From the sequence record PZ445451.1: DNA of 64,000 nucleotides. One strand, given 5' to 3'. The notes under the pieces were generated by a model, which saw only the letters and a list, made by a program, of their open reading frames with translations, made no database searches and was not told where the DNA came from. This stretch comes from a phage. Shown here piece after piece: positions 24,083 through 41,960 of this stretch. The first letter of the stretch is position 1. The number at the start of each line of letters is the position of its first letter. Position numbers and translations under genes: made by a program.

Positions 24083-24090
24083 GGCAAGAA

Positions 24091-24517: not shown

Positions 24518-24539
24518 ACACACAACAAAGGAGAACTAC

Positions 24540-25153: not shown

Positions 25154-25171
25154 AAACAAAAGGGTAAAATT

Positions 25172-25495: not shown

Positions 25496-25558
25496 TTGAC
25501 AGCACATCTAACGAGTAGTATATTGTATCTCATAGAGCGGGGAAATGGTTTCCCCGCC
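25496..25558 (+). promoter_or_regulatory. sigma70-like promoter (TTGACA-N17-TATATT) plus leader hairpin (GCGGGGAAATGGTTTCCCCGC)
   Basis: Seen directly; stem lengthened by one compensated G-C pair. Confidence 0.6.
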
Positions 25559-25577
25559 TTAAAAGAAGAGATAAGCT

Positions 25578-25862
25578 ATGAAGATCACAAAAGCACTTTC
25601 CAACTATGCAGCACGTCGCGGATTATGCTTATCCGTTGAAAACTTAGGGAAAGAAGATTTTTTGTGTTTTTGGGAGCTTGAAAATGAAAGTGAATGGTTG
25701 TTCTCTTATTCTATCTGCGAAGATCAAAACGGTTGTTTGTTAACCTGGCGCGGTAATATCTATCTACCGGAAGAAATCAAAGAAGAATTGCCAGGCACGA
25801 TCATGACTGAGAAACAGCTTAAGGAAGTGATTAATTTTGTAGGGCAAAACATTAAAAAATAA
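25578..25862 (+). CDS. Hypothetical protein (94 aa)
   Basis: Track ORF after promoter-hairpin unit. Confidence 0.55.
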   Translation: MKITKALSNYAARRGLCLSVENLGKEDFLCFWELENESEWLFSYSICEDQNGCLLTWRGNIYLPEEIKEELPGTIMTEKQLKEVINFVGQNIKK

Positions 25863-25863
25863 T

Positions 25864-25922
25864 TTGACACTAGGCAAACAACGTAGTAAAGTTTATCACA
25901 TAGGGCGGCAATAGTGCCGCTC
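25864..25922 (+). promoter_or_regulatory. sigma70-like promoter (TTGACA-N17-TAAAGT) plus leader hairpin (GGGCGGCAATAGTGCCGCTC)
   Basis: Seen directly; same hairpin variant as 19379. Confidence 0.6.
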
Positions 25923-25943
25923 ATAACAGAAGAGAAACAAATC

Positions 25944-26114
25944 ATGATCCCGACTATGTTTTATGTATCGCGCAAAGGTCACAATATTTTTTGGTCTGAA
26001 GATTTAAATGAAGCCATGACGTTTGCCCGTGATCGTGTTGCTATCGGTGGCGTTAACATTACTGTAACCGATGAAAACGGCATTGAATACTATAACGGCG
26101 ACGATGAAGAGTAA
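25944..26114 (+). CDS. Hypothetical protein (56 aa)
   Basis: Track ORF; start moved to MIPTMFYV because the track start lies in the hairpin. Confidence 0.5.
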   Translation: MIPTMFYVSRKGHNIFWSEDLNEAMTFARDRVAIGGVNITVTDENGIEYYNGDDEE

Positions 26115-26121
26115 TTAATAA

Positions 26122-26142
26122 GGCGGGGGAGTATTCCCCGCC
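26122..26142 (+). promoter_or_regulatory. Leader-type hairpin (GGCGGGGGAGTATTCCCCGCC) without an upstream promoter
   Basis: Seen directly between genes 25944 and 26162. Confidence 0.5.
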
Positions 26143-26161
26143 GTCAATAAAGAGGTAAATC

Positions 26162-26431
26162 ATGAAAATATCTTTGGACGTTGCAATCAAGGCCATCGAA
26201 TCCGGTTACACCCTGGTAAAAGATGATAAGGCTAAAATAGTGCATCATGTTAACAAGGAAACAGGCGAAAGCATGATCACATATAAAGCCGCCTACTTTC
26301 TCCAATCAGTAGCAGATCCGCGCGTACAACGCCAGGTTACAGCGGCTATTGCTAAAAAATTATGTGCTTTACAGGGCACAAGTTTTAACGAGATCGCCCC
26401 GTGTTTTGACTGGTCGAGCTTGAAAAAATAG
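26162..26431 (+). CDS. Hypothetical protein (89 aa)
   Basis: Track ORF; AAAGAGG SD after hairpin. Confidence 0.55.
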   Translation: MKISLDVAIKAIESGYTLVKDDKAKIVHHVNKETGESMITYKAAYFLQSVADPRVQRQVTAAIAKKLCALQGTSFNEIAPCFDWSSLKK

Positions 26432-26432
26432 T

Positions 26433-26494
26433 TTGACAATATGCTGTTATCTGGTAAAGTGTACGACATAGGGCGAGGCAATAAGGCAACGCCC
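26433..26494 (+). promoter_or_regulatory. sigma70-like promoter (TTGACA/TAAAGT) plus divergent leader hairpin (GGGCGAGGCAATAAGGCAACGCCC)
   Basis: Seen directly. Confidence 0.5.
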
Positions 26495-26513
26495 ATTAAT
26501 GAGGGGTAGAATC

Positions 26514-26618
26514 ATGTTAGAGAAAATTTTCACGGTTGTAATAGTGGGCCTGGCGTTATCGGTTGGATTGGTTGCAACTATGGCTAACATGATCCTATCT
26601 TCCCACGGTATTGGATAA
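26514..26618 (+). CDS. Small hydrophobic peptide (34 aa, MLEKIFTVVIVGLALSVGLVATMANMILSSHGIG)
   Basis: Manual ORF; GAGGGG SD; first ORF after the promoter-hairpin unit. Confidence 0.3.
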   Translation: MLEKIFTVVIVGLALSVGLVATMANMILSSHGIG

Positions 26619-26628
26619 GGTGAATCAA

Positions 26629-26844
26629 ATGATCACGAATAAGACAGGTAAAACAGAATTTTTACGCAGCTTGCAAATAGGTAAACCTGAGATCTGGCAT
26701 TGCACTAAATCCGCGCATAATGAAATGAAAGATTTTACCGCTACTTTACAACGTGTTAAAATATCTATCACACAGAAAAAAGCCTTGTTAGTAGTAGAAA
26801 ACGAGATCCCGCAAACCATTATTATTGTCGAGCGTACAGCATGA
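26629..26844 (+). CDS. Hypothetical protein (71 aa)
   Basis: Track ORF; start moved to MITNKTGK (AAGGTGA SD). Confidence 0.5.
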   Translation: MITNKTGKTEFLRSLQIGKPEIWHCTKSAHNEMKDFTATLQRVKISITQKKALLVVENEIPQTIIIVERTA

Positions 26845-27227
26845 AAACTGAAATCATTAACGAAATGATCAACGGCTATAAAGAAGCCTTTATTTTTGCC
26901 GAACCAGCGACGGATCACAATGGGGAATATATTGAGAATCTAGACGATTATGATTTTTCTCCTAGCGCCCTGAAACGTATTACCAGCGATGTGACCGCCT
27001 TTTGTAGTGCCAATGTTGCCGCTATCTCTGAGGCAATGAGCGACGGCGCTACAGCAAACCAGATCGGGAATGATTTACATTTTACCCGTAACGGTCACGG
27101 CGTAGGTTTTTGGGATCGCCCTGAAATATACACTACTAACACCGCCAACCGTTTAACTGATGCAGCTAAATTAATGCCATTGGTGCATGCTTACATTGGT
27201 GAAGATAATTTGATTTATATTGACTAA
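26841..27227 (+). CDS. Hypothetical protein (128 aa)
   Basis: Track ORF; ATGA overlap with upstream gene. Confidence 0.55.
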   Translation: MKTEIINEMINGYKEAFIFAEPATDHNGEYIENLDDYDFSPSALKRITSDVTAFCSANVAAISEAMSDGATANQIGNDLHFTRNGHGVGFWDRPEIYTTNTANRLTDAAKLMPLVHAYIGEDNLIYID

Positions 27228-27232
27228 AAGTG

Positions 27233-27291
27233 TTGACACCGATCCCCAATATGTTATTATTTACCACGTAAGCGGGAAATGGTTTCCCGCC
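27233..27291 (+). promoter_or_regulatory. sigma70-like promoter (TTGACA/TATTAT) plus leader hairpin (GCGGGAAATGGTTTCCCGC)
   Basis: Seen directly. Confidence 0.6.
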
Positions 27292-27314
27292 AGGTAATCA
27301 AAAAGGTAAATACT

Positions 27315-27704
27315 ATGCGCAACCTGGTTTCTGTTTCTAACGTTGAAAAATTTCAATCTTTACAGGGTATCGTTAACAACGTAGCGCCTTTTTTAGTCAA
27401 CGGCTTGATTGCAAAGATGAAAAATAAACATCATGCGGCATGGTCTGCTTACTGCTTTGATAATGATGAAAAAGCGGCTGAAATGATGCTAAATATGCTG
27501 TTAGACAGTGTAGAATCATCTTTACCGGAAAACATCGCAGAAGAGATCACCTATCGTTATAATATGGCGATCACTTACCAGGAGGTTGCGCAATTTAATA
27601 TGATGGACGATGACGAACAACAGGATCAGGAAATGTTTTGGGAGTATGCTGATCGTCAATCGGCTTTTGATGAAAAATTAGCGATGTATTATAACGAATA
27701 TTAA
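27315..27704 (+). CDS. Hypothetical protein (129 aa)
   Basis: Track ORF; start moved to MRNLVSVS downstream of hairpin. Confidence 0.55.
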   Translation: MRNLVSVSNVEKFQSLQGIVNNVAPFLVNGLIAKMKNKHHAAWSAYCFDNDEKAAEMMLNMLLDSVESSLPENIAEEITYRYNMAITYQEVAQFNMMDDDEQQDQEMFWEYADRQSAFDEKLAMYYNEY

Positions 27705-27714
27705 TACACGGTAA

Positions 27715-27745
27715 AAGAAAGGGGCGCACTAAGCGCCCTTTTTTG
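27715..27745 (+). terminator. Rho-independent terminator (GGGGCGC-ACTAA-GCGCCC-TTTTTT)
   Basis: Seen directly. Confidence 0.7.
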
Positions 27746-28089
27746 TATTCTTTTTTCACGATGGAAACAACACGTAAAGAATAGGCGTAAAGGTGGCGTA
27801 AAACCATCTAAAACCGACTGTAACCGCTTAAACAAGGTAGGAATGATTAATCACCTTACCAGGGTGAAAAAGCTGTTATAAAGCTACCTAGAGCGTTTAA
27901 AGCACATAGGGAATAATTTGCTTTTTATCTTGCCTTTTATCCTGCTTTTGATTATTATTATGGAACGGGCGGCACCTGGGGACAGGGGAAGATAATCACC
28001 GGAAGATCCCGCTATATATTGATAGCTAATACCTATTAAACAACAAAACATCAAAGGAATAAACTATCAAATCTTTACAATCCTACCTA

Positions 28090-28150
28090 TTGACACAGGA
28101 TCACCCTTATACTAATATGTATCCCGTAGGGCGGGAAATGGTTTCCCGCT
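28090..28150 (+). promoter_or_regulatory. sigma70-like promoter (TTGACA-N17-TAATAT) plus leader hairpin (GGGCGGGAAATGGTTTCCCGCT)
   Basis: Seen directly. Confidence 0.6.
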
Positions 28151-28168
28151 TGATATAGGAATCATACC

Positions 28169-28402
28169 ATGATCGAACAAATTAAAAGCACTACACCAAA
28201 TGTTAACGGCAATGTTTCACACTTTATCGGTGATAATGAAAGGGGCACACCATACGCCGCCGTAACCGTGCAACCTAATGGCGATTATTGGTTTACCGTG
28301 TACGGATCATACTCTTTCGGACGCCCGGCACATGATAAGATCTTGCAAGCGGTTAAACCTGCGGGGAAGAATATCACAGCAGAAAAATTTTATAAAAAAT
28401 AG
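28169..28402 (+). CDS. Hypothetical protein (77 aa)
   Basis: Track ORF after promoter-hairpin unit. Confidence 0.55.
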   Translation: MIEQIKSTTPNVNGNVSHFIGDNERGTPYAAVTVQPNGDYWFTVYGSYSFGRPAHDKILQAVKPAGKNITAEKFYKK

Positions 28403-28403
28403 C

Positions 28404-28432
28404 TTGCTTTATTTCTTCTGTTAACTTATAGT
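28404..28432 (+). promoter_or_regulatory. sigma70-like promoter (TTGCTT-N17-TATAGT)
   Basis: Seen directly; leader hairpin degenerate here. Confidence 0.45.
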
Positions 28433-28477
28433 TATCGCGTAGGGCAAACAATTTTAAACGGTAAACGAGGAATCACC

Positions 28478-28861
28478 ATGAGCAATATCATCAACCTGGC
28501 AGCGACTGTAAACGGTAAAGATTTTAACGGCGCTGTAGACCGTGATCCTATGTGGTGCTTATCAGTGTTTAAAGGCGACCTGGTTGAAGTTAGAACAACC
28601 GAAGGCTATAGCGATGATTATAAATGCGAGATCCATTTACATAACTGGTACACGGGGAAAACTTATGCGCTGAATCACGCATTTATCGGGAAAATTGAAT
28701 ATCGCGAAATGATCGACGAAGAAACGGGGCAAGATTTTAGCGATTATGTTTATATCCGTTCAGAAACATTAGCCGAACGCTTGATCGAGAAAATGAAAGC
28801 AAAAAATAAAATTAATTTAGCTCATTGGCTTGATATAACAAATGATCCGGCTTACAAGTAA
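28478..28861 (+). CDS. Hypothetical protein (127 aa)
   Basis: Track ORF; ACGAGGAA SD. Confidence 0.55.
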   Translation: MSNIINLAATVNGKDFNGAVDRDPMWCLSVFKGDLVEVRTTEGYSDDYKCEIHLHNWYTGKTYALNHAFIGKIEYREMIDEETGQDFSDYVYIRSETLAERLIEKMKAKNKINLAHWLDITNDPAYK

Positions 28862-28876
28862 ATAACATTTCACACC

Positions 28877-28903
28877 AGGGCGCACAAAGCGCCCTTTCTT
28901 TTT
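28877..28903 (+). terminator. Rho-independent terminator (AGGGCGC-ACAAA-GCGCCCT-TTCTTTTT)
   Basis: Seen directly; ends the small-gene array. Confidence 0.7.
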
Positions 28904-29703: not shown

Positions 29704-30042
29704 TGCGTTATTATTAGCTAATGTTTGGAACATTGGCTATAATATAAGCTACATATAATAAGCTATACAATAATAAACATAATGAATAATGACACTGATG
29801 ATCATAATGCGCCACCTTCCAGGGGGCGCTATGTGAACACAAAGAAATCTTTCTTGTCAAGAAAAATATCACCATTATTGCGCAAAATTATTTATATCTG
29901 AACAGATGATTTTTCATACTATTGCCCCCTATAGTATCCCTATTTGTTGTAATGTATTCCCCTATTTGTTGAGCCTACTCTCTTAAAAGCGCAATAAATT
30001 AGAATTATCTTGATTTTTAGGTAGTTTTATAGTATAGAAAAT

Positions 30043-30066
30043 ATGCAAATGATAATCATTATCAGC
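30043..30066. promoter_or_regulatory. Fur-box-like site (GCAAATGATAATCATTATC)
   Basis: Seen directly; AATGATAATCATTATC is a 16/16 match to the 3' part of the Fur consensus. Confidence 0.6.
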
Positions 30067-30229
30067 TATCTTCCACAGGTGGCACTATTTCACGCCAGAT
30101 CATTTCATTTGGCAAGGTGTATATAGATGTTTAGAAATGCCAAGCCATTGATTTACTTAGAATTTATCTGTTTTGTTGTGAGTAGTGCCTTTCTTGCTCA
30201 GAAAATAATCAAAAGTCTTATAAGTCATT

Positions 30230-30264
30230 GAATGATAATGCAAATGATAATTATTCTCATTGAT
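30230..30264. promoter_or_regulatory. Fur-box-like site (GAATGATAATGCAAATGATAATTATTCTCATT)
   Basis: Seen directly. Confidence 0.5.
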
Positions 30265-30378
30265 ATTTGAGGGGGACGGTCGGCAGAAATCGGGGGCGCT
30301 AAAAATCGCGTTAAGCACCTCTCGCAAGCGAGCAGTATTTTGCGGCAAGTTATTGATATTATTGGCTTTACGCTTATG

Positions 30379-30485
30379 GAAAGGGGGTGTGTCGAAATAA
30401 ATCGGGTATACCGGAAAATTTTTGTGGCATAGATATTTATTTGTCTATATTATGTACAAAGGGGTGTGTTAAAAATAATAGGTAT
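30379..30485. repeat. Two copies of AAAGGGGTGTGT..AAATAA..GGTATA motif about 73 bp apart
   Basis: Seen directly; third partial copy at ~17919. Confidence 0.45.
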
Positions 30486-30717
30486 ATATAGAATAATTGA
30501 TAGGGAAATCCTATACTAATCCCTCCATTAATGATGTTCCTAGGTTGCTGTTCTTGTAACAGATGAAAAGACGCTGTATGATGTGTGGCATGAGACGTAA
30601 ATTTATAAGATGCAAATAATGCTTGCATTGAATAGAAATGTCTGTATAGTGGTTTGCATACCGCGCACGACGCGTTTCCATTTTCAATAAAATGTTAGCA
30701 TTATGGGGAGGTAGAAA

Positions 30718-31179
30718 ATGAGACAACTATCTATACTGGAAGCACATGTGCAATGTGTTGCAGATTATGTCAAAGAACACTCAAGTTTGTTGGATGTAAC
30801 CTGTGCAGTGCAAAATGATGTAGGTATTGTCTGTGTGCGACATATCTTATCTGAAACTCGTTATGAAGTATTTCGTGCCAAGTTGTTTGGATGTGATCAA
30901 GTGCATGTAAACTTCTTGGATTCCAATTTTCGTTATGCTTTAGAAAATATTGATGATTATCTTCCTTGCTCTCCGACCGGATATGTGATGATAGCAGCAA
31001 ATGAAGTAACACCAAACAACAGTGAGCGGGAAACTTTGTTACGGAAGAAAATACGCCAACTGCAAGTGTTGAATGAACTGAAAGAAGAGATTGAAAAAGA
31101 ACTGAAAGAAGATTTTGGTATGCTTCCAAAAGACGCTTTGAAATGGTTTGATGAACTAGGAGAGGAAAGTTATGAATAA
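30718..31179 (+). CDS. Hypothetical protein (153 aa); N-terminus paralogous to 36932 gene
   Basis: Track ORF; GGGGAGG SD; shares ..H.SLL.V...V....G.V.V.H.LS.T.Y.VF....... with 36932..37183. Confidence 0.55.
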   Translation: MRQLSILEAHVQCVADYVKEHSSLLDVTCAVQNDVGIVCVRHILSETRYEVFRAKLFGCDQVHVNFLDSNFRYALENIDDYLPCSPTGYVMIAANEVTPNNSERETLLRKKIRQLQVLNELKEEIEKELKEDFGMLPKDALKWFDELGEESYE

Positions 31180-31348
31180 AGAAACTACTGTGTACTTAGT
31201 AACAAAGAATACCCCAGGCTGGAGCCAATGCAGCACTGTCCCTTACAAGATCTGTGCAACATTAGAACTAGCACAACGTGCAGAAGCAGAAGTGAATGCC
31301 ATGCAATACAGCTATGGTGAAATCATTCCTTTTACTCTTGAACAATAA
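31172..31348 (+). CDS. Small hypothetical protein (58 aa)
   Basis: Manual ORF below size cut-off; GGAGAGGAAAG SD; overlaps upstream stop. Confidence 0.4.
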   Translation: MNKETTVYLVTKNTPGWSQCSTVPYKICATLELAQRAEAEVNAMQYSYGEIIPFTLEQ

Positions 31349-31359
31349 GGAGTTGTGTA

Positions 31360-31812
31360 ATGTTTGAAATTGGTAAAGTGTATCGTTTTAAAAACCCATC
31401 TTATATCCGTAAGTTTGCTAACGTGTCTGAGTGCAATAGCAGGATTGCTTCTTTTTTAGGTGATTCATATTTTCGTGTATTAGATGTGGATGATTGGTAT
31501 GGTGTCACTGCTTTGCAATCCTTAGCAGGAGAACAAGAAATTATCGCTCAAAATGAAGGAGACTTTCTTCAGTGTTACACGTTGCTTGCAAAAAGTGAGT
31601 TTGAGTATTTTGTAGAAGTCTTAGAGGAAGCACCAAAAAGTAAACACGAAGAGAAATACCTGCTTGTAGTGGATGGAGTTCCGATCATGGAAACCATCTC
31701 CCGTGAGGAAGTTGAAAAAGAGGCGAAACGTTACAAGCTGGATCGTACACAGAGTGTAGTTGAAGTCTATTCTCTTGTTGGTGTTGCAGATATTAGTGTG
31801 AACATCGTATAA
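31360..31812 (+). CDS. Hypothetical protein (150 aa)
   Basis: Track ORF; AAGGAG SD. Confidence 0.55.
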   Translation: MFEIGKVYRFKNPSYIRKFANVSECNSRIASFLGDSYFRVLDVDDWYGVTALQSLAGEQEIIAQNEGDFLQCYTLLAKSEFEYFVEVLEEAPKSKHEEKYLLVVDGVPIMETISREEVEKEAKRYKLDRTQSVVEVYSLVGVADISVNIV

Positions 31813-31815
31813 TAT

Positions 31816-32028
31816 ATGTGTAATGACAGATACATTCTTCGTGTATCTGATAAGTCTCCTATGTTTGACTGGCGGGGTTGGTGGCTACTAGCTCCGATGC
31901 AAGGTCTGACAGACGTGGAAAAGGAGGCTTATGTGTATACAAAAGAAGAGATAGAAGATAGCCTTTATTTGACAGATAACATTAAGAATGGTATCTTTGA
32001 GTGTAAATTGAAAGGAGAGGAAGAATGA
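31816..32028 (+). CDS. Hypothetical protein (70 aa)
   Basis: Track ORF. Confidence 0.45.
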   Translation: MCNDRYILRVSDKSPMFDWRGWWLLAPMQGLTDVEKEAYVYTKEEIEDSLYLTDNIKNGIFECKLKGEEE

Positions 32029-32324
32029 CTATTACAGAAAAACTGCGCTGTATTGCAAAGCAAAGTGGAGAAGGTTTATGGTTTCCTATTGAGGAAATTA
32101 TTCAGGACTGTTATGATCAGGCTAAGACTGGCAAATACTCCAAAGCATTTAAACCATCTGTTTTCGGTTTGGATGACTATCCAAAAAATGAACAAGCAAA
32201 GAAACGACAAGTTGATTTGATTGATCTTGCTATGGAAGCACTACGAGAGCATGGGCTTAGTAAGGTGTATGCTTTAAACACCAAAGAGGGCTTTGTAGAT
32301 TCAGTGATCGTAGACTGGTATTAA
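32025..32324 (+). CDS. Hypothetical protein (99 aa)
   Basis: Track ORF, ATGA overlap. Confidence 0.5.
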   Translation: MTITEKLRCIAKQSGEGLWFPIEEIIQDCYDQAKTGKYSKAFKPSVFGLDDYPKNEQAKKRQVDLIDLAMEALREHGLSKVYALNTKEGFVDSVIVDWY

Positions 32325-32333
32325 GGAGAAGTC

Positions 32334-32702
32334 ATGCAAGAAAATAATAAAGTGTGTAGCATGAAAAGCAGCCCATATTTGCTACAATTTTATGAGTGGT
32401 GGTTAGAACAAGAAGATACAAACTTTAGCAAAAAGCATTATGGTCTTTGCACGTGTCTTGTAGACTTCTTATACAATATTGCTTGGATAAAAGATGTTGA
32501 GAATGTATCAAAGCTCCAATCCTCTGTACGAGAGGAAATGAAGGAACAATTTAAGAAAGCGGGTTTGAACCATTTACATCCGTTTAATACGGATTTCTCG
32601 CACTACTTTACGGAAACAGAGCTAGGCATTGCACACCTTAATAAAGAACGTGTACAATGGGTGATTGATCGTATTCGTGATATGGAGGAATACAATGGTT
32701 AA
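32334..32702 (+). CDS. Hypothetical protein (122 aa); paralog of 33326 gene
   Basis: Track ORF; shares LLQFY..W, LHPFN and HLNKERV.WV motifs with 33326..33910. Confidence 0.55.
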   Translation: MQENNKVCSMKSSPYLLQFYEWWLEQEDTNFSKKHYGLCTCLVDFLYNIAWIKDVENVSKLQSSVREEMKEQFKKAGLNHLHPFNTDFSHYFTETELGIAHLNKERVQWVIDRIRDMEEYNG

Positions 32703-32913
32703 GTTTAAAACTTTCTGTGCAATCACTGTTTGTCTTATTCTTGCATACGTGTTATTCTCTGGTATCGTTCGTTTAGGTGAGTATATGGCAAGAGAAGCTC
32801 GTGAAAGTGCAGCTAAAAAAGAACAGTGTATTGTGTTCAAGCATCAAAGAGATGCTGAAAAGTTTCTCGCACTTGATTGCAATCGTTATGTATCATATCA
32901 AATGTATGAGTAA
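32698..32913 (+). CDS. Small membrane-anchored protein (71 aa); paralog of 37407 gene
   Basis: Track ORF; start moved to MVKFKTF (GGAGGAA SD); shares KE.CI..KH.R.AE.FL...C..Y..Y with 37407..37631. Confidence 0.5.
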   Translation, partial: VKFKTFCAITVCLILAYVLFSGIVRLGEYMAREARESAAKKEQCIVFKHQRDAEKFLALDCNRYVSYQMYE

Positions 32914-32922
32914 GGAGAATTT

Positions 32923-33147
32923 ATGGTAAAACGTTTGGAATGGGATGCGTGTACTGCTCACGCTTGTCACTGCGATATTGTTGAAGATCCTAATGGAGAA
33001 ATGGTGTATTATGAAGATTACGAAGCATTGCACAATGCTGTGATTGCTTTACTGGATGATATTAGCTCACGCTATCCAGGACAACAATTCACGTGTCCAC
33101 ATATCCAACTATTAGCCGAACTTACGGAGTATCCAAGTGTTCCATAA
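32923..33147 (+). CDS. Hypothetical protein (74 aa); weak paralog of 38292 gene
   Basis: Track ORF; shares CDIV.DP.G..V...DY..L. Confidence 0.5.
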   Translation: MVKRLEWDACTAHACHCDIVEDPNGEMVYYEDYEALHNAVIALLDDISSRYPGQQFTCPHIQLLAELTEYPSVP

Positions 33148-33148
33148 T

Positions 33149-33316
33149 ATGGGTGTCCCTGAACAACTGCTCTTTATTGTAGGATTAGTAGGCTTATTGG
33201 CGGCTGGCGCTAAAGCCGCTTCTCACACGCATCACATAATGTTAAGATTTCTATTCCTGCTCCCTTCTATCCTCGTACTACTAGTCATACTGATCGATAA
33301 CATTTTGCATAATTAA
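33149..33316 (+). CDS. Small membrane protein (55 aa)
   Basis: Manual ORF (MGVPEQLLFIVGLVGLLAAGAKAASH..); two hydrophobic helices. Confidence 0.35.
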   Translation: MGVPEQLLFIVGLVGLLAAGAKAASHTHHIMLRFLFLLPSILVLLVILIDNILHN

Positions 33317-33325
33317 GGAGAGGTT

Positions 33326-33910
33326 ATGAGTAAAATTATACCAAGCAGTTATGAATTATTACAGTTTTATGTGTATTATATAGACTGGGTTAGTAGATTG
33401 AATGTTAAAGACAATGCGATGTTTAGTAAAAACATCTGTTTAACAGAAAGTATCTTCCGTTACTGGCACACAGGTAGAAAGTGTACACACAGTGAAGCTA
33501 TGCGCATTGTAGGAGAATATCTGGAGCAATTGCAAAAAGCAGAACTTCCTGTCCTTCACCCATTCAATGAATCTAAAGAAGAATTAGAACAAGAATGTAG
33601 GGAAGGTAAGTGCCATTTGAATGAAAAACGTATCGAATGGGTGAGGCAACGTTTAGCCGATGCAGGGAATCCTCCTAGTGACTCTGACTATACGTGGTAT
33701 GATGTAGAGGGTTTAGTTCAAGGTTTTGAGGCTTGTGCTATAGGTAATACCAACTTTGCCAAAGTTTTATGCGAGGTTTATGATCTGGCAGATAAAATCC
33801 GAAATCACGGATGGAAACAAGAGCATAAAGAATCATATGAACGCCTTGACAAGATTTTCAAACAGATCTATTCTAACCACAAAGAGATGTTCCAAATGGA
33901 GGATGTGTAA
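33326..33910 (+). CDS. Hypothetical protein (194 aa); paralog of 32334 gene
   Basis: Track ORF; AAGGAGAGG SD. Confidence 0.55.
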   Translation: MSKIIPSSYELLQFYVYYIDWVSRLNVKDNAMFSKNICLTESIFRYWHTGRKCTHSEAMRIVGEYLEQLQKAELPVLHPFNESKEELEQECREGKCHLNEKRIEWVRQRLADAGNPPSDSDYTWYDVEGLVQGFEACAIGNTNFAKVLCEVYDLADKIRNHGWKQEHKESYERLDKIFKQIYSNHKEMFQMEDV

Positions 33911-34596
33911 TGAAAGAGATTATGTTTGAAGGGCATCGTTACGAAGTTCCAGACAATGCAAATTTCATGGCTCGTGATATCACTGGAGATGTGTTCTGGT
34001 TTGAAGATGAACCTGTGTTTTCTTCGAACAAACACTGGTTTTCACAACAATCTTCTTCGGAAAATATGACTTTTGGTTATGTAGAACCTAAAGTACGTTG
34101 CAAAGCAGCTTCTTCTTTGGTAAAAATTTCCCAAGATGACCAAGAAAATACTCAAGATGTTGTTAGTGCACTACTGAAGTACATTGCAGAACTTGAAAAT
34201 AAAATTAAAGAAGCAGAAACTAAGGTGAAAGCACGATCAGCAATCATTGAAGCTATGTCTGAACGTATTTTAGAACTAGAAGATTTGTGTGGAGAGGCTT
34301 ATCAAGTGGTTGGGGCACTGGCTTGTGAAGCACAAATGTTTGAAACTTCAGAACAAGTTTCACATATGTTAGATAATTTGAGTGAATGTAAAATGATTCA
34401 TGATGATGTATTGCCATTTTGTTGCAATGTTAACAAAACAGAGCAAACAGAAGATTCAGAAACAGTTTATGTTCCGCTAATGTGTGTTCCAGATCATCTG
34501 AAAGGTGTATTCTCTTGTAAATGGTCACTGTTGAGCGTTAATAATTGTGGTGAAAACTATTCTGCTAACATTGAATTGCTAAAACACGTTAAATAA
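33910..34596 (+). CDS. Hypothetical protein (228 aa) with central coiled coil
   Basis: Track ORF. Confidence 0.55.
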   Translation: MKEIMFEGHRYEVPDNANFMARDITGDVFWFEDEPVFSSNKHWFSQQSSSENMTFGYVEPKVRCKAASSLVKISQDDQENTQDVVSALLKYIAELENKIKEAETKVKARSAIIEAMSERILELEDLCGEAYQVVGALACEAQMFETSEQVSHMLDNLSECKMIHDDVLPFCCNVNKTEQTEDSETVYVPLMCVPDHLKGVFSCKWSLLSVNNCGENYSANIELLKHVK

Positions 34597-34606
34597 GGAG
34601 AGTGAT

Positions 34607-35011
34607 ATGTGGTCTGTTAAAATCAAATATAATGCGCAGTATTATGGTGGAAAACCTTACGAAGTTGTTATTTGTGATTGTATCTCTGAAGAAGTTGCAC
34701 AGCTTTGTGGCGCTGGTGTTAGTGAAGCTATGAACAAAATGCATAACTCGACTGTGCGTTACCTGGATCAAGATATTCCAGAAGATGTAAATGACTATGC
34801 TTACGAAGTTATTTATAGTGAAGGTAAGAAGCTCTCTATTGAAGATGCACTTAAAGCACTACCTGCTATGTGCAACCCGACACCAGAAGCAGTTAAAGAG
34901 ATTTTACCAGAATCCAACCCCGATGAATATGCTGCTATGGTTGCTTCAGACATGTGGAATCTCTGTCGAGAAACTATGATTAAAAATCTGGTGGAAATGG
35001 CACATGAGTAA
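34607..35011 (+). CDS. Hypothetical acidic protein (134 aa)
   Basis: Track ORF; AAGGAGAG SD. Confidence 0.55.
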   Translation: MWSVKIKYNAQYYGGKPYEVVICDCISEEVAQLCGAGVSEAMNKMHNSTVRYLDQDIPEDVNDYAYEVIYSEGKKLSIEDALKALPAMCNPTPEAVKEILPESNPDEYAAMVASDMWNLCRETMIKNLVEMAHE

Positions 35012-35222
35012 AACGCACTTTATACATCCGTTTGATCCAAGGAACAAGGCGGTTATACACCGCCGTTGGACTGAAACGCGCATTACAAAATGTCCTGTGC
35101 CAGCAGCACAGGAATATAACAAAACATATAAAGCAGAATTTGTGGAGTACACCTTTGTAAATAACAAAGGGAAGGAGGTTTATGTTCCAGAATACTGCCT
35201 TTGGATAAAATGGGAGGAATAA
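35004..35222 (+). CDS. Hypothetical protein (72 aa)
   Basis: Track ORF. Confidence 0.5.
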   Translation: MSKTHFIHPFDPRNKAVIHRRWTETRITKCPVPAAQEYNKTYKAEFVEYTFVNNKGKEVYVPEYCLWIKWEE

Positions 35223-35389
35223 TGCAAACATTTTTTATCGACAAGTTCAATAAAAATATGAACACGTGGATGGCAACATTCACTATGCAATTTGCATCGT
35301 TTAAAGAAGCTCAAGAATGGTGCGATCAACACAAGGATTTTGACTTTTACTATCAAATCAATCCGAATCTCTCTCCAGAGGAGAAATAA
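35222..35389 (+). CDS. Hypothetical protein (55 aa)
   Basis: Track ORF; start moved to MQTFFIDKF (GGGAGGAA SD). Confidence 0.45.
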   Translation: MQTFFIDKFNKNMNTWMATFTMQFASFKEAQEWCDQHKDFDFYYQINPNLSPEEK

Positions 35390-35390
35390 T

Positions 35391-35735
35391 ATGTTGGCTG
35401 ATATTGAAATCCTTATGTACCGACAAGGTATGATCAAAATGTGGCTAGATTCTTTTAGCAACATATACTGCACAGTACGATCAGCAGACGAGCGTAAAAC
35501 GCTTATTTTATCTGCTATTGTTGATAAACAACGTTTCTTCAAAGAAATTTTGCAAACAGGCTTCTCCGATGCAGGAGTAGAGATTGCAACGCTTAGTCTT
35601 GGAGTGCTGTCTTACTTGGAATCCGTTGTTTTATATGTCTTCTCTTTAGAAGAACACTTGCAATTTGAAGCATTAAAACTTATCTTAGATGCTGCAATTG
35701 ACATAGAACAAAATCGAATTGATTCTTTTGAATAA
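35391..35735 (+). CDS. Hypothetical protein (114 aa)
   Basis: Track ORF; start moved to MLADIEIL (GAGGAGAAA SD). Confidence 0.5.
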   Translation: MLADIEILMYRQGMIKMWLDSFSNIYCTVRSADERKTLILSAIVDKQRFFKEILQTGFSDAGVEIATLSLGVLSYLESVVLYVFSLEEHLQFEALKLILDAAIDIEQNRIDSFE

Positions 35736-35751
35736 AAATAAGGAGGAAACT

Positions 35752-36210
35752 ATGCAAGAGGTTAAACATTATCCACATGGTCGTAGTTTTGTAGCTGTAT
35801 GGCATGTTCCTGCTCGTAATGAACTATTTTGTGCATCTTTTCATTACAAAGATGGACAATATTTCACCTATGACGAGACGATGGATGATTTTATCCCAGA
35901 GTGCGATCATGGGTATACACCAATGTTCTTTAAACGTATGAAAGCTCGTTTCTTCGTTACAGATGTTGATGGTGAACCTACTTGGCACATCGAAGAAGAT
36001 TGGCAAGATTCTGTGGATATTAAAGAAGCCCCAGAATGGGCTACATTACTGGTACACGTCAAAACCCCTACTCTTGACGTTATGGCGTGGGTTAATCATG
36101 ATGATACCCATTACCAATACATAAATGGTAGCACAGAGATTTCTGGTGAGATTATTGGTCGTTGGAAGCCTACGAATCAGGTTGCTATTGTCGGGTATAA
36201 GACAGTATAA
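35752..36210 (+). CDS. Hypothetical protein (152 aa)
   Basis: Track ORF; start moved to MQEVKHYP (AAGGAGGAA SD). Confidence 0.55.
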   Translation: MQEVKHYPHGRSFVAVWHVPARNELFCASFHYKDGQYFTYDETMDDFIPECDHGYTPMFFKRMKARFFVTDVDGEPTWHIEEDWQDSVDIKEAPEWATLLVHVKTPTLDVMAWVNHDDTHYQYINGSTEISGEIIGRWKPTNQVAIVGYKTV

Positions 36211-36211
36211 T

Positions 36212-36406
36212 ATGAAAAAGAGTGTAGATTGGGATGATTTATCCGATTTTGAAAAATGGTTCTTAGGTAGTGGTTGTTATGCAGATGGGGATCTCGAAAG
36301 AGATCCTTCTGGAAACTACACTATGCCATTAACCCAAGGTTTTTATGAGTGCTGGTGCGCAGCACAAAACAACGTACTGAATAAGGAGACAACACAATGC
36401 AATTAA
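36212..36406 (+). CDS. Hypothetical protein (64 aa)
   Basis: Track ORF; start moved to MKKSVDWDD to remove overlap with upstream gene. Confidence 0.45.
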   Translation: MKKSVDWDDLSDFEKWFLGSGCYADGDLERDPSGNYTMPLTQGFYECWCAAQNNVLNKETTQCN

Positions 36407-36636
36407 ACATCGGACAACCAATTTTTGATGCAGATACTGGTCAATATGCAGTGATTGTTGCTCGTATGAGCGGTGATGACCTTATTGTTTCAGAACTACT
36501 CGGATCCGATCCGCAACTGCGCGTAGTATGTGACCTATATCTTCGAGACGAAAGTGATCGCATTGCACTGAAAGAAGATGGTATGCTCTACTACACCTGG
36601 ACTAGAGATCCTGGGGTAACGGAGGTAGAGGTATAA
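36397..36636 (+). CDS. Hypothetical protein (79 aa)
   Basis: Track ORF. Confidence 0.5.
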   Translation: MQLNIGQPIFDADTGQYAVIVARMSGDDLIVSELLGSDPQLRVVCDLYLRDESDRIALKEDGMLYYTWTRDPGVTEVEV

Positions 36637-36935
36637 TGGTAAGGAATAGGGGTTTACATAAAAGAAGACACCTTACTTACTGGCATCGTAAAGTACATGA
36701 ACCTGTATCAAAGAAAGAATGGCAATATCTGCCTTATGGGAAGGAGCGAAGAAAGTATTTGTTAGCTCATTTAAGGGTACATGGTTCTCTTCCTGTTAAC
36801 AGTAAGTGGCAATTGCAAACAGCTTATGACGAAGATATGAAATATCTGTTAAAGAGAGGCATTATTTGCCTTGTTAAGATTGGACGATGGAAATCTCGTC
36901 AATCTTATATCGTACTTAAACAGGAGAAACGATGA
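36636..36935 (+). CDS. Hypothetical basic protein (99 aa)
   Basis: Track ORF. Confidence 0.5.
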   Translation: MVRNRGLHKRRHLTYWHRKVHEPVSKKEWQYLPYGKERRKYLLAHLRVHGSLPVNSKWQLQTAYDEDMKYLLKRGIICLVKIGRWKSRQSYIVLKQEKR

Positions 36936-37183
36936 ATATCAAAGATGTTGTAGCATACGTAGAAGATGAAGTTAAAAACCATACAAGTTTACTGAAAGTA
37001 ATGGTTGTGGTTAAAGATGGTATTGGACAAGTAAACGTACAACATGTCTTATCTGACACTGTATATAATGTGTTTGAATGTAAAGAAACACCTCATGGAG
37101 TACGTGTGGTTTATATTGATAACAATTTCAAAGAATGTGTGAGACATACCTTAGAAAATGAACTAAGGATCACAATCTTATGA
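36932..37183 (+). CDS. Hypothetical protein (83 aa); paralog of N-terminus of 30718 gene
   Basis: Track ORF. Confidence 0.5.
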   Translation: MNIKDVVAYVEDEVKNHTSLLKVMVVVKDGIGQVNVQHVLSDTVYNVFECKETPHGVRVVYIDNNFKECVRHTLENELRITIL

Positions 37184-37353
37184 GTTATTATGTTGTACCT
37201 TATGCCAATAAGTGGAGAGTAAGAGAAACTTGTTTTCTATTCTCCTGGTGGGCTACGTTCGGAGATGGTTGTGGGAATGATACAGGAAAGCCTGTAGAGT
37301 ACGACACAAAAGAAGAATGTGAACAGTGGATAAAATTAACACAAAGATGTTGA
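37180..37353 (+). CDS. Small Cys-containing protein (57 aa)
   Basis: Manual ORF (MSYYVVPYANKWRVRETCFLFSWWATFGDGCGND..); ATGA overlap with upstream stop. Confidence 0.35.
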   Translation: MSYYVVPYANKWRVRETCFLFSWWATFGDGCGNDTGKPVEYDTKEECEQWIKLTQRC

Positions 37354-37406
37354 CACGATCTTAACTTCTTGTTAGTATCAATGTGTACTAACGATAAGGA
37401 GGGTTT

Positions 37407-37631
37407 ATGAAGTCTGTAAACAAGTTGCAACAATTTTTGTTATCAACAGCAATCTTTTTGCTTTTGTTGATTGGTATTCTGTATGGTGCATCTAATTTGT
37501 ACAATCTACATAATGATGTAGAACAGAACAAAGAGAAGTGCATCATTCTGAAACACAAGAGACAAGCAGAAGATTTCTTAAAGAATAAGTGTTACAACTA
37601 CATTGATTATGAGGAGACAAACAATGATTAA
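37407..37631 (+). CDS. Small membrane-anchored protein (74 aa); paralog of 32698 gene
   Basis: Track ORF; AAGGAGGG SD. Confidence 0.5.
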   Translation: MKSVNKLQQFLLSTAIFLLLLIGILYGASNLYNLHNDVEQNKEKCIILKHKRQAEDFLKNKCYNYIDYEETNND

Positions 37632-37866
37632 AGAATTAGGTATGCGAGTATACAGTGAGTGGACTCCAAGCAATGGCCCAGGAGTTGTTGCAGCTAAATG
37701 TATCAATGGTCGTATTGAGTACCTGGAAGGGTATGAAGATAATGAAGAGTTAGTAGATTATGCTAAATCTTTTATTGAAGATGATACAGACTTTATTGTG
37801 TTATATGATACAGGAGAGTTAGAGTATGGATATGATGGAGATGGGGATATCTTTGAACTTCAATAA
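37624..37866 (+). CDS. Hypothetical acidic protein (80 aa)
   Basis: Track ORF; start moved to MIKELGMRVY. Confidence 0.5.
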   Translation: MIKELGMRVYSEWTPSNGPGVVAAKCINGRIEYLEGYEDNEELVDYAKSFIEDDTDFIVLYDTGELEYGYDGDGDIFELQ

Positions 37867-38073
37867 GAGTAGTAAGTAAGGTATAAAGAGTATATAGTTA
37901 GTTATAGAGTTAGTAACATTACATATACTCTTTCCATGTATAACATGGAATATTCTCTACCTCGCTATCGCTCGGTATATAAGATTAGGGTAGCATGTTT
38001 TTTACGAAAAGTAAAACTGTTTATACCGATTGATAGCAGGTTTTTAATAGATTCTATCTATGAGGAGTAGAAA

Positions 38074-38292
38074 GTGTACAAATTATATAAAGGAAAAGAT
38101 AAGTTTACGGGTAATACATCTGGTTTCTATGTAACACCACGTGGTGTTGCTGTGTTCGATTGGATCTCTGGTACGCCAGATCGTGAAATGATCTCTCTTG
38201 TAAAACTGTCAGAACAAGATTATACTTACGGTGACATTACAACATTCTATTCTCGTGCAGAAAATCCAAAACTGATTGCGGAGTGGGAATAA
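38074..38292 (+). CDS. Hypothetical protein (72 aa), GTG start
   Basis: Track ORF; GAGGAG SD before GTG. Confidence 0.5.
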   Translation: MYKLYKGKDKFTGNTSGFYVTPRGVAVFDWISGTPDREMISLVKLSEQDYTYGDITTFYSRAENPKLIAEWE

Positions 38293-38555
38293 TGGTTACA
38301 CGATATGATTTAGAGGTGTACAGCCAAGGTGCTGCTGGTCAATGTGATATTGTACCAGATCCAGAAGGAGACTATGTTCTTCTTGCTGATTACAACAAGC
38401 TAGAAGAAAGACTTCTGGCTGTGTATGCTAAAGAGAACAAAACAATCTGCCCTTATTGCAATGGAATGGGTTGGGTGGTTGCAGATGTTGGACAAATGTA
38501 TGAATGTGTACCGTGTAAAACCACAGGATTTATTGAAAAGGATACTGACAAATGA
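38292..38555 (+). CDS. Cys-rich hypothetical protein (87 aa); weak paralog of 32923 gene
   Basis: Track ORF; start moved to MVTRYDLEV (ATG 38292); CPYCNG..C..C motif. Confidence 0.5.
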   Translation: MVTRYDLEVYSQGAAGQCDIVPDPEGDYVLLADYNKLEERLLAVYAKENKTICPYCNGMGWVVADVGQMYECVPCKTTGFIEKDTDK

Positions 38556-38800
38556 CTGTAGCAGATAAAATGAGAGAACTGGCAGAAAACGCAGAACTTA
38601 ACAAAGCAAAAGAGAGTTTACAAAGCATCTACGCGTATATTGAAAGAGCAGCTAAAGATGGAGACAGAGAAGCTGCTATATACACGCTTTATCCAACTTT
38701 CGTAAAAGTTAGCTTGGATGCTGAAGGTTTTTCAACTTTTATTGATACAGAAACATCTCATTACGATGAAAACTTTACTCGAATAGTTATTCGATGGTAA
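38552..38800 (+). CDS. Hypothetical protein (82 aa)
   Basis: Track ORF. Confidence 0.5.
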   Translation: MTVADKMRELAENAELNKAKESLQSIYAYIERAAKDGDREAAIYTLYPTFVKVSLDAEGFSTFIDTETSHYDENFTRIVIRW

Positions 38801-38905
38801 ATTTCTGATATTTATGCGCCCTGGCTACCTGGGCGTAATAAATTCAGCTTATATTTGATCCGCGCCTTCGGCGCTTAGGCAAAGCCACGCCACACAGGAG
38901 AGTTT

Positions 38906-39316
38906 ATGTTCAAATGGTTAAAAGAGTTTCTAACATCTTTGGCAGAACCTAAGCAAGATGTTATTAAAAGCTCTATCACAGGAAAACCGCTTGTTATAGT
39001 TACAGGCGGCTTTGGTCATGGGTTTTCTCTTAAACAAACAGATATAGGTTTACAGGGATCTTTGATTAGTTTTAGAATCACCCAACTAGGAGATAATAGA
39101 CAAACAATCTTAGACCTTTTCAATGGGGAATTTGATGACTATTTATCTAAGAGTGGTAAAGAACGTCTGATCGAGCATATAAAACACCGCTATGAGCATG
39201 GTGGTTACTACTTAGATACAAAACGTAATGCACAAGGTGATCTTGACATAGTTCGTATAGCGTGGGATAATGAATTTAAAACTAAACTTGGTAAACTTCT
39301 GGAGGAGTTATGGTAA
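38906..39316 (+). CDS. Hypothetical protein (136 aa)
   Basis: Track ORF; GGAGAG SD. Confidence 0.55.
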   Translation: MFKWLKEFLTSLAEPKQDVIKSSITGKPLVIVTGGFGHGFSLKQTDIGLQGSLISFRITQLGDNRQTILDLFNGEFDDYLSKSGKERLIEHIKHRYEHGGYYLDTKRNAQGDLDIVRIAWDNEFKTKLGKLLEELW

Positions 39317-41847: not shown

Positions 41848-41926
41848 ATGACTTTACTAGAGAGTATCGTAGTGTTAATCATCTTTATCATTGTTGTCAT
41901 AGGATATTTTACAGAAGACTAAAATA

Positions 41927-41960
41927 AAGCCCCTAGAATCGCTTCTAGGGGCTTTTGTTT
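41927..41960 (+). terminator. Rho-independent terminator (AGCCCCTAGAA-TCGC-TTCTAGGGGCT-TTTGTTTG)
   Basis: Seen directly; end of plus-strand block. Confidence 0.65.

What the first reader, a model, noticed from the sequence alone, without database searches (positions are those of the whole stretch)
30718..38555. Diverged paralogous gene pairs indicating segmental duplication among small genes
Four gene pairs are recognisably related at protein level: 30718 with 36932 (..H.SLL.V...V....G.V.V.H.LS.T.Y.VF), 32334 with 33326 (LLQFY..W, LHPFN, HLNKERV.WV), 32698 with 37407 (KE.CI..KH.R.AE.FL...C..Y..Y, both with an N-terminal membrane anchor), and 32923 with 38292 (CDIV.DP.G..V...DY..L). Phage small-gene families that duplicate and diversify are often under arms-race selection, for example host-takeover or anti-defence proteins.
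Basis: seen in the sequence. Interest (0 to 1): 0.5.

Follow-up and report, generated by a model that had tools for sequence, protein, structure and literature searches.

The report
Old paralog pairs among phage early genes
Four pairs of small genes next to the genome end of an E. coli phage (PaulScherrer, a phi92 relative) really are distant paralogs, but they are old, mostly conserved copies made by several recombination events, not one recent block duplication or a visible arms race.

Summary
The window is Escherichia phage PaulScherrer (Bas60, Justusliebigvirus). The finding covers phi92 gp001–gp025, the first genes after the left terminal repeat.

All four pairs are real. Smith-Waterman scores are 69–117 against shuffle means of 23–31, 0 of 2000 shuffles reach them, and PHROG cross-hits are reciprocal.

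"Segmental duplication" is only partly supported:
- **gp006/gp010:** they belong to a large uncharacterised phage family (about 1,900 clusters, six helices, no Pfam entry, no PDB neighbour). It has 7 copies in phAPEC8 and 2–4 in congeners. The two genes are not sister copies.
- **gp020, gp022 and the N-module of gp025:** these are restricted to Justusliebigvirus and lie in the same order as gp001, gp007 and gp008. The blocks are not contiguous.
- **gp001:** it is a recently exchanged cassette, 94% nucleotide-identical to phAPEC8.

Natural in-frame chimeras at 9–10 nt microhomologies show the remodelling mechanism.

The arms-race reading is mostly unsupported. dN/dS is 0.04–0.16 for five of the eight genes. 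It is raised only in the membrane-anchored pair gp007/gp022 (0.46 and 0.22) and in gp001 (0.77, few substitutions).

Function remains unknown. This is an ordinary plastic early-gene region.

The parts
30718..31179 (+). gp001 (bas60_0147), family A copy 1: A-domain (about residues 1-77) plus a coiled-coil/acidic C-terminal tail
   Evidence: Pair statistics. PHROG 14944 with a cross-hit to 27423. Annotation. dN/dS 0.77 with dS 0.014.
36932..37183 (+). gp020 (bas60_0166), family A copy 2: A-domain only, restricted to Justusliebigvirus
   Evidence: tblastn finds orthologs at >=90% identity only in about 50 Justusliebigvirus records. dN/dS 0.16.
32334..32702 (+). gp006 (bas60_0152), family B member: six-helix domain of about 105 aa
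   Evidence: AF2 model with pLDDT 86 and pTM 0.81. dN/dS 0.08.
33326..33910 (+). gp010 (bas60_0156), family B member: B-domain (residues 1-115) plus an unrelated C-terminal domain of about 75 aa. In phAPEC8 the C-terminal part has its counterpart in the small ORF right after a B gene.
   Evidence: dN/dS 0.10.
32695..32913 (+). gp007 (bas60_0153), family C copy 1: N-terminal transmembrane anchor plus a tail of about 40 aa with two Cys
   Evidence: Hydropathy maximum 2.55 at residues 7-25. PHROG 15662 with a cross-hit to 23204. dN/dS 0.46.
37407..37631 (+). gp022 (bas60_0168), family C copy 2: same architecture, restricted to Justusliebigvirus, variable (86-100% aa identity)
   Evidence: The phi92 record annotates a signal peptide. 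dN/dS 0.22.
32923..33147 (+). gp008 (bas60_0154), family D copy 1: looks like a shortened form of the ~150-aa Phapecoctavirus protein
   Evidence: AF2 model with pLDDT 73: beta-hairpin followed by a helix. dN/dS 0.05.
38292..38555 (+). gp025 (bas60_0172), family D copy 2: D N-module (residues 1-45) fused to a CxxC...CxxC zinc-ribbon
   Evidence: Outside Justusliebigvirus only residues 53-87 (the zinc ribbon) are matched. dN/dS 0.04.
30563..30635 (+). Scar of a deleted third family B gene. It keeps the in-frame leader and the last 8 codons of the B gene that is intact in phage BME3.
   Evidence: tblastn hit of 81% over 16 aa (E 5e-6) plus 8 of 8 terminal residues. Translations.
30656..31183 (+). 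Exchanged cassette: gp001 plus about 60 bp upstream, 93.75% nucleotide-identical to phAPEC8
   Evidence: blastn. Low dS. Presence/absence within the genus.
37350..37378 (+). Promoter-like site (TTGACA-17-TAGTAT with TG) in the gap before gp022
   Evidence: This is a consensus match only, and the overall count of such sites is not above the shuffles.
37932..37950 (+). Terminator-like hairpin after gp023
   Evidence: Terminator-like sites number 19 against 6.5 expected.

Best explanation
The four pairs are old paralogs in the plastic accessory-gene block that follows the left terminal repeat of a phi92-like phage. Early expression is inferred from this position and is not shown.

They did not arise in one event. 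Family B (gp006, gp010) is an ancient, widespread, often multi-copy phage family of six-helix proteins of about 105 aa. Its two copies here diverged before Justusliebigvirus and Phapecoctavirus split. Families A, C and D each have one copy shared with the sister genus and one copy found only in Justusliebigvirus.

The copies were made and reshaped in two ways. The first is illegitimate recombination at short microhomologies between neighbouring genes of replicating genomes, which gives duplications, deletions and in-frame fusions. The second is homologous cassette exchange between co-infecting relatives. Because of this, in three pairs only an N-terminal module is shared and the C-terminal parts differ: gp001 has an extra tail, gp010 an extra domain, and gp025 a zinc ribbon.

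Most copies are now kept by purifying selection, so they are most likely sub-functionalised accessory proteins. My inference, not shown, is that A, B and D act in the cytoplasm by binding host or phage partners. I also infer that the family C pair are inner-membrane-anchored peptides with a disulfide-bonded periplasmic tail that act at the envelope, for example in superinfection exclusion. That pair is the only one with a hint of diversifying pressure.
For: Shown:
- The window is PaulScherrer, and the region is phi92 gp001-025 directly after the terminal repeat.
- The pairs are significant.
- There are exactly two members per family in this genome by iterated HMM search.
- phAPEC8 has 1, 7, 1 and 1 members of families A, B, C and D. 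Its order gp001-gp003-gp005-B-C-D-B is syntenic with this genome.
- gp006 and gp010 fall in different clades; gp010N groups with phAPEC8_17664 with bootstrap 89.
- B copy number is 2-4 among congeners, with a frameshifted remnant in ECGD1 and a deletion scar in this window.
- Family B has 1,916 representative clusters, including two- and three-domain tandem fusions.
- gp020, gp022 and the gp025 N-module occur only in Justusliebigvirus.
- The copy-1 orthologs of the two genera are closer to each other than to copy 2: A 92% vs 47-50%, C 47% vs 33-38%, D 63% vs 37-45%.
- Synonymous positions between the copies are saturated.
- Two natural in-frame chimeras were confirmed in contigs: gp010N::gp015C at CCGATGCAGG and gp008N::gp023C at TATGAAGAT.
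- gp001 is 93.75% nucleotide-identical to phAPEC8, while neighbouring genes share only 23-50% aa identity.
- dN/dS values are.
- gp007 and gp022 each have a transmembrane segment and two conserved Cys.
Against: - No function is shown for any family. The early timing is inferred only from position, gene size and orientation, and the sigma-70-like site count is not above shuffles.
- The collinear order of A', C' and D' and their shared genus restriction are what a single block copy would also predict.
- Orthology within family B rests on a neighbour-joining tree of about 100 columns. Synteny would instead pair gp010 with phAPEC8 13995.
- The pooled pairwise dN/dS ignores recombination and uses only 11 genomes.
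- The two chimeras come from short assembled contigs of single samples.
Confidence: 0.6

Rival explanations
1. One segmental duplication. A block carrying gp001...gp007-gp008 was copied once in the Justusliebigvirus stem lineage. The copy then lost the gp002-006 equivalents, gained gp021, gp023 and gp024, and its last gene fused to a zinc-ribbon gene.
For: A', C' and D' lie in the same order as A, C and D. All three occur only in Justusliebigvirus. Divergence is similar across the three pairs at 33-47% aa identity. Four of about ten genome-wide paralog pairs sit in this block.
Against: Collinearity of three pairs has a 1-in-6 chance expectation. The B pair does not fit, because it is older and both copies are syntenic in phAPEC8. 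The gp024-Zn-ribbon adjacency is ancestral, so D' sits apart from A' and C'. No intervening gene shows paralogy; gp023 vs D gives p = 0.06, and no third members were found. The present gp001 is a recently imported allele.
Confidence: 0.2
2. The second copies are xenologs. gp020, gp022 and the gp025 N-module would have been acquired by recombination from an unsampled phage lineage rather than duplicated in place.
For: Inter-genus cassette exchange is demonstrably active here: gp001 is 94% nucleotide-identical to phAPEC8, and M2929_3354 is nearly identical to phAPEC8_7346. Copy 2 always falls outside the (Justusliebigvirus copy 1, Phapecoctavirus copy 1) group.
Against: No donor lineage was found in 50,697 phage records or in the deep protein searches. 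The composition of the block is uniform.
Confidence: 0.15
3. The families are anti-defence or host-takeover effectors diversifying under an arms race.
For: The position next to the genome end is typical of the first DNA to enter the cell. Family B is multi-copy with variable copy number. gp007 and gp022 are the most variable proteins in the block, with dN/dS of 0.46 and 0.22. gp008 has a weak PHROG hit to 'Lar-like restriction alleviation' (E 7.7e-4).
Against: dN/dS is 0.04-0.16 for five of the eight genes and never exceeds 1. There is no match to Pfam, PADLOC or PDB. The Lar lead was not reproduced by Pfam or by fold search, and the shared module has no 4-Cys ribbon. phi92-like phages are reported to be highly RM-sensitive (PMC8594841).
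Confidence: 0.15
4. The similarities are chance or compositional, for example hydrophobic anchors or low complexity.
For: The proteins are short, and one pair shares a hydrophobic N-terminus.
Against: Shuffle z-scores are 9.6-18 with 0 of 2000 shuffles reaching the observed score. The C pair keeps score 85 without the anchor. HMM cross-hits are reciprocal.
Confidence: 0.01

Closest known systems
Plastic ('hyperplastic') accessory regions of large lytic phages, such as the T4 superfamily periphery and the SPO1 terminal host-takeover module (from my own knowledge; not tested here)
   Same: These regions also hold dense arrays of small genes of unknown function on one strand near a genome end. 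They show frequent indels, cassette exchange between relatives and occasional paralogs.
   Different: There is no sequence or structural relationship to any characterised T4 or SPO1 early protein. Expression timing has not been measured for this phage.
PHROG families phrog_14944/27423, phrog_2510/27059 (plus 6418), phrog_15662/23204 and phrog_23083/22955
   Same: Each gene is a full-length, high-scoring member of one of these PHROGs and cross-hits its partner's PHROG.
   Different: All are labelled 'unknown function'. PHROGs splits each pair into separate families, so the paralogy is not explicit there.
Small membrane-anchored phage exclusion proteins such as T4 Imm/Sp and T5 Llp (functional analogy from my own knowledge)
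   Same: gp007 and gp022 are about 72 aa, probably expressed early, and have an N-terminal hydrophobic anchor or signal and a short extracytoplasmic tail. They are the most variable proteins in the block.
   Different: No sequence similarity was detected, no lipobox is present, and the function is untested.
Lar (restriction alleviation, PF14354 / phrog_3592)
   Same: gp008 residues 2-48 weakly hit the N-terminal part of the phrog_3592 profile (E 7.7e-4).
   Different: There is no Pfam Lar hit, the shared module has no 4-Cys zinc ribbon, the fold search returned nothing, and these phages are RM-sensitive.

Membership tests
Single segmental (block) duplication | Paralog pairs lie in the same order and orientation in two blocks | tested here: inconclusive
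   A, C, D and A', C', D' are collinear, but B' lies inside the first block. The chance of collinearity for three pairs is 1 in 6.
Single segmental (block) duplication | The blocks are contiguous, and intervening genes are also paired or explicable | tested here: not met
   gp002-005, gp009, gp021, gp023 and gp024 have no partner. The gp024-Zn-ribbon adjacency is ancestral in phAPEC8.
Single segmental (block) duplication | All second copies have the same age and the same phyletic distribution | tested here: inconclusive
   A', C' and D' are all restricted to Justusliebigvirus. The B pair predates the genus split. Synonymous sites are saturated, so ages cannot be compared.
Arms-race (diversifying) selection | dN/dS is raised well above the background of neighbouring genes, ideally above 1 | tested here: not met
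   Five of the eight genes lie at 0.04-0.16, against a block median of 0.10. gp007 is 0.46, gp022 is 0.22, and gp001 is 0.77 on 13 variable codons. None exceeds 1. Site models were not run.
Lar-like restriction alleviation protein (PF14354 / phrog_3592) | A significant profile match and a 4-Cys zinc ribbon | tested here: not met
   The PHROG match is E 7.7e-4 over the N-terminal 47 residues only. There is no Pfam hit. The shared D module has a single conserved Cys.
DnaJ-type CxxCxGxG zinc finger (C-terminal half of gp025 only) | A Pfam PF00684 match above the cut-off and two CxxCxGxG motifs | tested here: inconclusive
   The score is 15.9 bits against a cut-off of 32.7. CPYCNGMG and CVPCKTTG are present in the sequence. 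This part is not shared with gp008.
Known anti-phage defence or counter-defence families (PADLOC-DB) | A significant HMM match | tested here: not met
   The best E-values are 0.007-0.016, on short coiled-coil stretches.

The most novel reading that the evidence does not exclude
Family B would be a large, uncurated, phage-specific effector family whose copy number expands and contracts at genome ends like a small 'genomic accordion'. It comprises about 1,900 clusters, has a six-helix fold with no PDB neighbour, and is multi-copy in many large phages. Alongside it, the gp007/gp022 pair would be diversifying periplasmic exclusion or envelope-targeting peptides. Together they would mark a previously undescribed host-interaction toolkit of Stephanstirmvirinae.
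Probability: 0.15. Interest if true: 0.6.

Novelty: new member of a known kind. Interest (0 to 1): 0.3.

Why it matters
The result documents, with statistics, how the accessory block at the genome end of a widely used model phage collection member (BASEL Bas60) is built. The block combines old paralog families, modular N-terminal domains, microhomology-mediated gene fusions and deletions, and inter-genus cassette exchange. It also flags one sizeable protein family (family B) that no curated domain library covers and that has no structural neighbour, and one membrane-anchored pair that is worth testing for exclusion functions. It does not reveal a new kind of system.

Tried and rejected
- **Pfam, PADLOC and PDB sequence searches** for all four families gave nothing significant.
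- **BFVD search with the gp008 model** gave nothing (best E = 0.83), so the weak 'Lar-like' PHROG lead was dropped.
- **gp023 as a cryptic third D-like gene**, which would have made gp022-gp023 a copy of gp007-gp008, was rejected (shuffle p = 0.06, HMM E = 0.26). The chimera that suggested it is a microhomology deletion.
- **Hidden third members** of any family among the 37 block genes or the whole genome were not found. The only extra trace is a deletion scar of a B gene.
- **DNA-level repeats** between the copies were not found.
- **Sigma-70 promoter scan** gave a count no higher than the shuffles (54 vs 52), so it was not used to define operons.
- **A single-sequence deep homolog search** for gp006 returned only its own ortholog. 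A profile was needed.
- **Literature searches** found no paper on these families. The phi92 genome paper is not held.


Full report
**Identity and setting.** Window 30000-39000 is 100% identical to Escherichia phage PaulScherrer (Bas60, MZ501100.1; Stephanstirmvirinae, Justusliebigvirus) and 98% identical to phage phi92. Window position x corresponds to record position x + 64675. In the phi92 record the same genes are gp001-gp025, and they start about 350 bp after the left direct terminal repeat. The block is a tightly packed plus-strand array of 37 small genes, nearly all annotated as hypothetical. It runs from 30718 to about 41850 and is closed by a bidirectional terminator-like hairpin at 41926-41955. 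Early expression is an inference from this position and architecture; it is not shown.

**Observation.** All four pairs hold up.
- Smith-Waterman scores are 117 (gp001/gp020), 116 (gp006/gp010), 87 (gp007/gp022) and 69 (gp008/gp025).
- Shuffle means are 23-31 with sd about 5, and none of 2000 shuffles reaches the observed score. Gumbel p values run from 3e-11 to 2.5e-6.
- The membrane pair keeps a score of 85 after its hydrophobic N-termini are removed.
- These are the four highest of 465 pairwise scores in the block.
- Each protein is a full-length member of one PHROG and cross-hits its partner's PHROG.
- In families A, B and D the similarity is limited to an N-terminal module. gp001 carries an extra coiled-coil/acidic tail, gp010 an extra ~75-residue domain, and gp025 a CxxC...CxxC zinc ribbon.
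- No DNA similarity survives between the copies, and third codon positions at identical residues agree only at about the random level. The duplications are therefore old.
- A six-frame all-against-all search of the assembled 150-kb genome finds only about ten credible paralog pairs, and four of them are in this 25-gene block. The expectation is 0.09 (P about 2e-6).

**Family B is an old multigene family, not a local duplicate.**
- Iterated HMM searches find exactly two members in PaulScherrer but seven in the early region of phAPEC8, which belongs to the sister genus Phapecoctavirus.
- Among eleven Justusliebigvirus loci the copy number is 2-4. ECGD1 carries a frameshifted remnant.
- PaulScherrer carries a deletion scar at 30563-30635. 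It retains the in-frame leader and the last eight codons of the B gene that is intact in BME3.
- In a neighbour-joining tree, gp006 and gp010 are not sisters. gp010 groups with phAPEC8_17664 (bootstrap 89), and gp006 groups weakly with the far-left-end copies.
- The order gp001-gp003-gp005-B-C-D-B is conserved between the two genera.
- An exhaustive profile search finds 1,916 representative clusters at E <= 1e-3. Most are about 105 residues, many are two-domain tandem fusions, and one is a three-domain fusion.
- The AF2 model of gp006 is confident (pLDDT 86, pTM 0.81) and consists of six helices.
- The viral structure library returns only uncharacterised proteins from diverse large phages, several per genome in Delftia phage PhiW-14 and Burkholderia phage BcepSaruman.
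- The family is absent from Pfam and PADLOC.

**Families A, C and D: one shared copy and one genus-specific copy.**
- phAPEC8 has one member of each of these families, syntenic with gp001, gp007 and gp008.
- tblastn against 50,697 phage records finds gp020 orthologs only in about 50 Justusliebigvirus records and gp022 only in 56 such records.
- Full-length gp025 occurs only in the same genus. Other genera match only the zinc ribbon, residues 53-87.
- gp007-type genes occur across the subfamily, one per genome.
- gp008 looks like a shortened version of the ~150-residue Phapecoctavirus protein.
- In all three families the copy-1 orthologs of the two genera are closer to each other than either is to copy 2: A 92% vs 47-50%, C 47% vs 33-38%, D 63% vs 37-45%. 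So copy 2 is either older than the genus split and was lost in Phapecoctavirus, or it evolved faster, or it was imported. These options cannot be separated without an outgroup.
- The same order (A, C, D / A', C', D') and the shared genus restriction are what a block duplication would leave. Against that, the blocks are not contiguous, no intervening gene is paired, and the D' module sits between gp024 and a zinc-ribbon gene whose adjacency is ancestral.

**gp001 is a mobile cassette.** Window 30656-31183 is 93.75% nucleotide-identical to phAPEC8, whereas neighbouring genes share only 23-50% amino-acid identity and give no blastn hit. Within the genus, gp001 has dS 0.014 against about 0.1 for its neighbours. 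It is absent from BME3 and M2929, where cassettes containing extra B genes take its place. SD2 carries an allele whose N-domain is only about 62% identical while the C-terminal tail is nearly identical. The present gp001/gp020 pairing therefore partly reflects recent exchange, not only duplication in place.

**Mechanism of remodelling.** Two homologs returned by the deep searches are natural in-frame chimeras.
- P0002 joins the gp010 N-domain to the gp015 C-terminus. This is a 1.9-kb deletion at the 10-nt microhomology CCGATGCAGG.
- P0185 joins the gp008 N-module to the gp023 C-terminus. This is a 4.7-kb deletion at TATGAAGAT, and it removes gp009-gp022, including B', A' and C'.

Both lie in contigs with otherwise normal synteny. 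Other congeners lack gp011 or gp011-013. Illegitimate recombination at microhomologies is thus active in this block. Its reciprocal products, duplications, are the most economical source of the paralogs and of their modular architectures; that last step is an inference.

**Selection.** Pooled Nei-Gojobori dN/dS was computed over eleven Justusliebigvirus genomes. The median is 0.10 for the 37 genes.

| Gene | Family | dN/dS |
|---|---|---|
| gp006 | B | 0.08 |
| gp010 | B' | 0.10 |
| gp008 | D | 0.05 |
| gp025 | D' | 0.04 |
| gp020 | A' | 0.16 |
| gp022 | C' | 0.22 |
| gp007 | C | 0.46 |
| gp001 | A | 0.77 (10 amino-acid-changing vs 3 synonymous variable codons) |

These values are. gp007 and gp022 are the most variable proteins in the block. 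Their changes fall mainly in the juxtamembrane and first half of the extracytoplasmic tail (plus an alternative C-terminus of gp007 in three genomes), while the AE.FL...C..Y..Y core is conserved. This is a hint of relaxed or diversifying pressure in one family, not a general arms-race signature.

**Function.** No family matches Pfam, PADLOC or any solved structure. The weak PHROG hit of gp008 to 'Lar-like restriction alleviation' (E 7.7e-4) was not supported by Pfam, by the moderate AF2 model (pLDDT 73: beta-hairpin plus helix) or by the fold search. The BASEL study reports phi92-like phages as exceptionally sensitive to restriction-modification systems (PMC8594841).

My best guess is that A, B and D are cytoplasmic accessory proteins that act by binding partners, and that the family C pair are inner-membrane-anchored peptides with a two-Cys periplasmic tail acting at the envelope, for example in superinfection exclusion. 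This is inference by analogy only.

**Verdict.** This is an ordinary example of a plastic, paralog-rich accessory region in a large lytic phage. The modest points of interest are a large uncurated protein family (B), direct evidence for microhomology-mediated gene fusion, and an inter-genus cassette exchange.

Noticed in passing
window 19360-28900 (+ strand): The small genes upstream of the terminal repeat are each preceded by a repeated cassette. It consists of a promoter-like TTGACA...TAATAT element followed by a conserved GC-rich hairpin (GGGCGGGAAATGGTTTCCCGCC or GGGCGGCAATAGTGCCGC) and then the ribosome-binding site. There are at least 6+3+3 copies, plus repeated terminator hairpins GGGCGC....GCGCCC. 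This contrasts with the tightly packed gp001-gp036 block.
   Followed up: partly
window 30656-31183: gp001 plus about 60 bp upstream is 93.75% nucleotide-identical to phAPEC8, a different genus, while the rest of the block is not alignable at the DNA level. gp001 has about 7-fold lower dS than its neighbours and is missing from some congeners.
   Followed up: yes
window 30563-30635: This is a deletion scar of a third family B gene. The in-frame leader and the last 8 codons of the gene that is intact in phage BME3 remain.
   Followed up: yes
L016 3618-4118; L017 851-1072: Natural in-frame chimeric genes occur in metagenomic relatives. gp010N::gp015C corresponds to a 1.9-kb deletion at CCGATGCAGG. 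gp008N::gp023C corresponds to a 4.7-kb deletion at TATGAAGAT.
   Followed up: yes
L010 2945-3193 (phage PD114; also the PD06-like L006): An extra 82-aa gene lies between the gp007 and gp008 homologs. It is annotated 'M20/M25/M40 family metallo-hydrolase', which is implausible for its size, and Pfam gives no significant hit.
   Followed up: partly
phage records MG065645, MG065639, MG065689, MG065650, MG065656: Records named 'Campylobacter phage' (host C. jejuni) carry early genes 88-98% identical in protein sequence to those of E. coli phi92-like phages, and one (B15) matches like a phAPEC8-type phage. They are probably mislabelled or contaminant genomes.
   Followed up: no
L008 21100-21306 (phAPEC8 gp205) and other Phapecoctavirus records: A zinc-ribbon protein of about 65 aa, orthologous to the C-terminal half of gp025, is annotated 'DNA ligase'. 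This looks like a label propagated from phrog_13972.
   Followed up: no
window 14733-15860 (+) versus record 62510-63670 (outside the window): The FtsH-like protease gene has a paralog with 47% identity over 254 residues elsewhere in the genome. The gp025 zinc ribbon also resembles the small gene at window 58309-58461 on the minus strand.
   Followed up: no
L008 13995-14548: In phAPEC8 a separate small ORF directly after a B gene resembles the C-terminal domain of gp010. This suggests that gp010 is a gene fusion in phi92-like phages, or that the gene was split in phAPEC8.
   Followed up: partly
window 41926-41955: A perfect 13-bp-stem hairpin flanked by T-runs on both strands lies where the plus-strand block meets the minus-strand genes. 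It is a likely bidirectional terminator.
   Followed up: no
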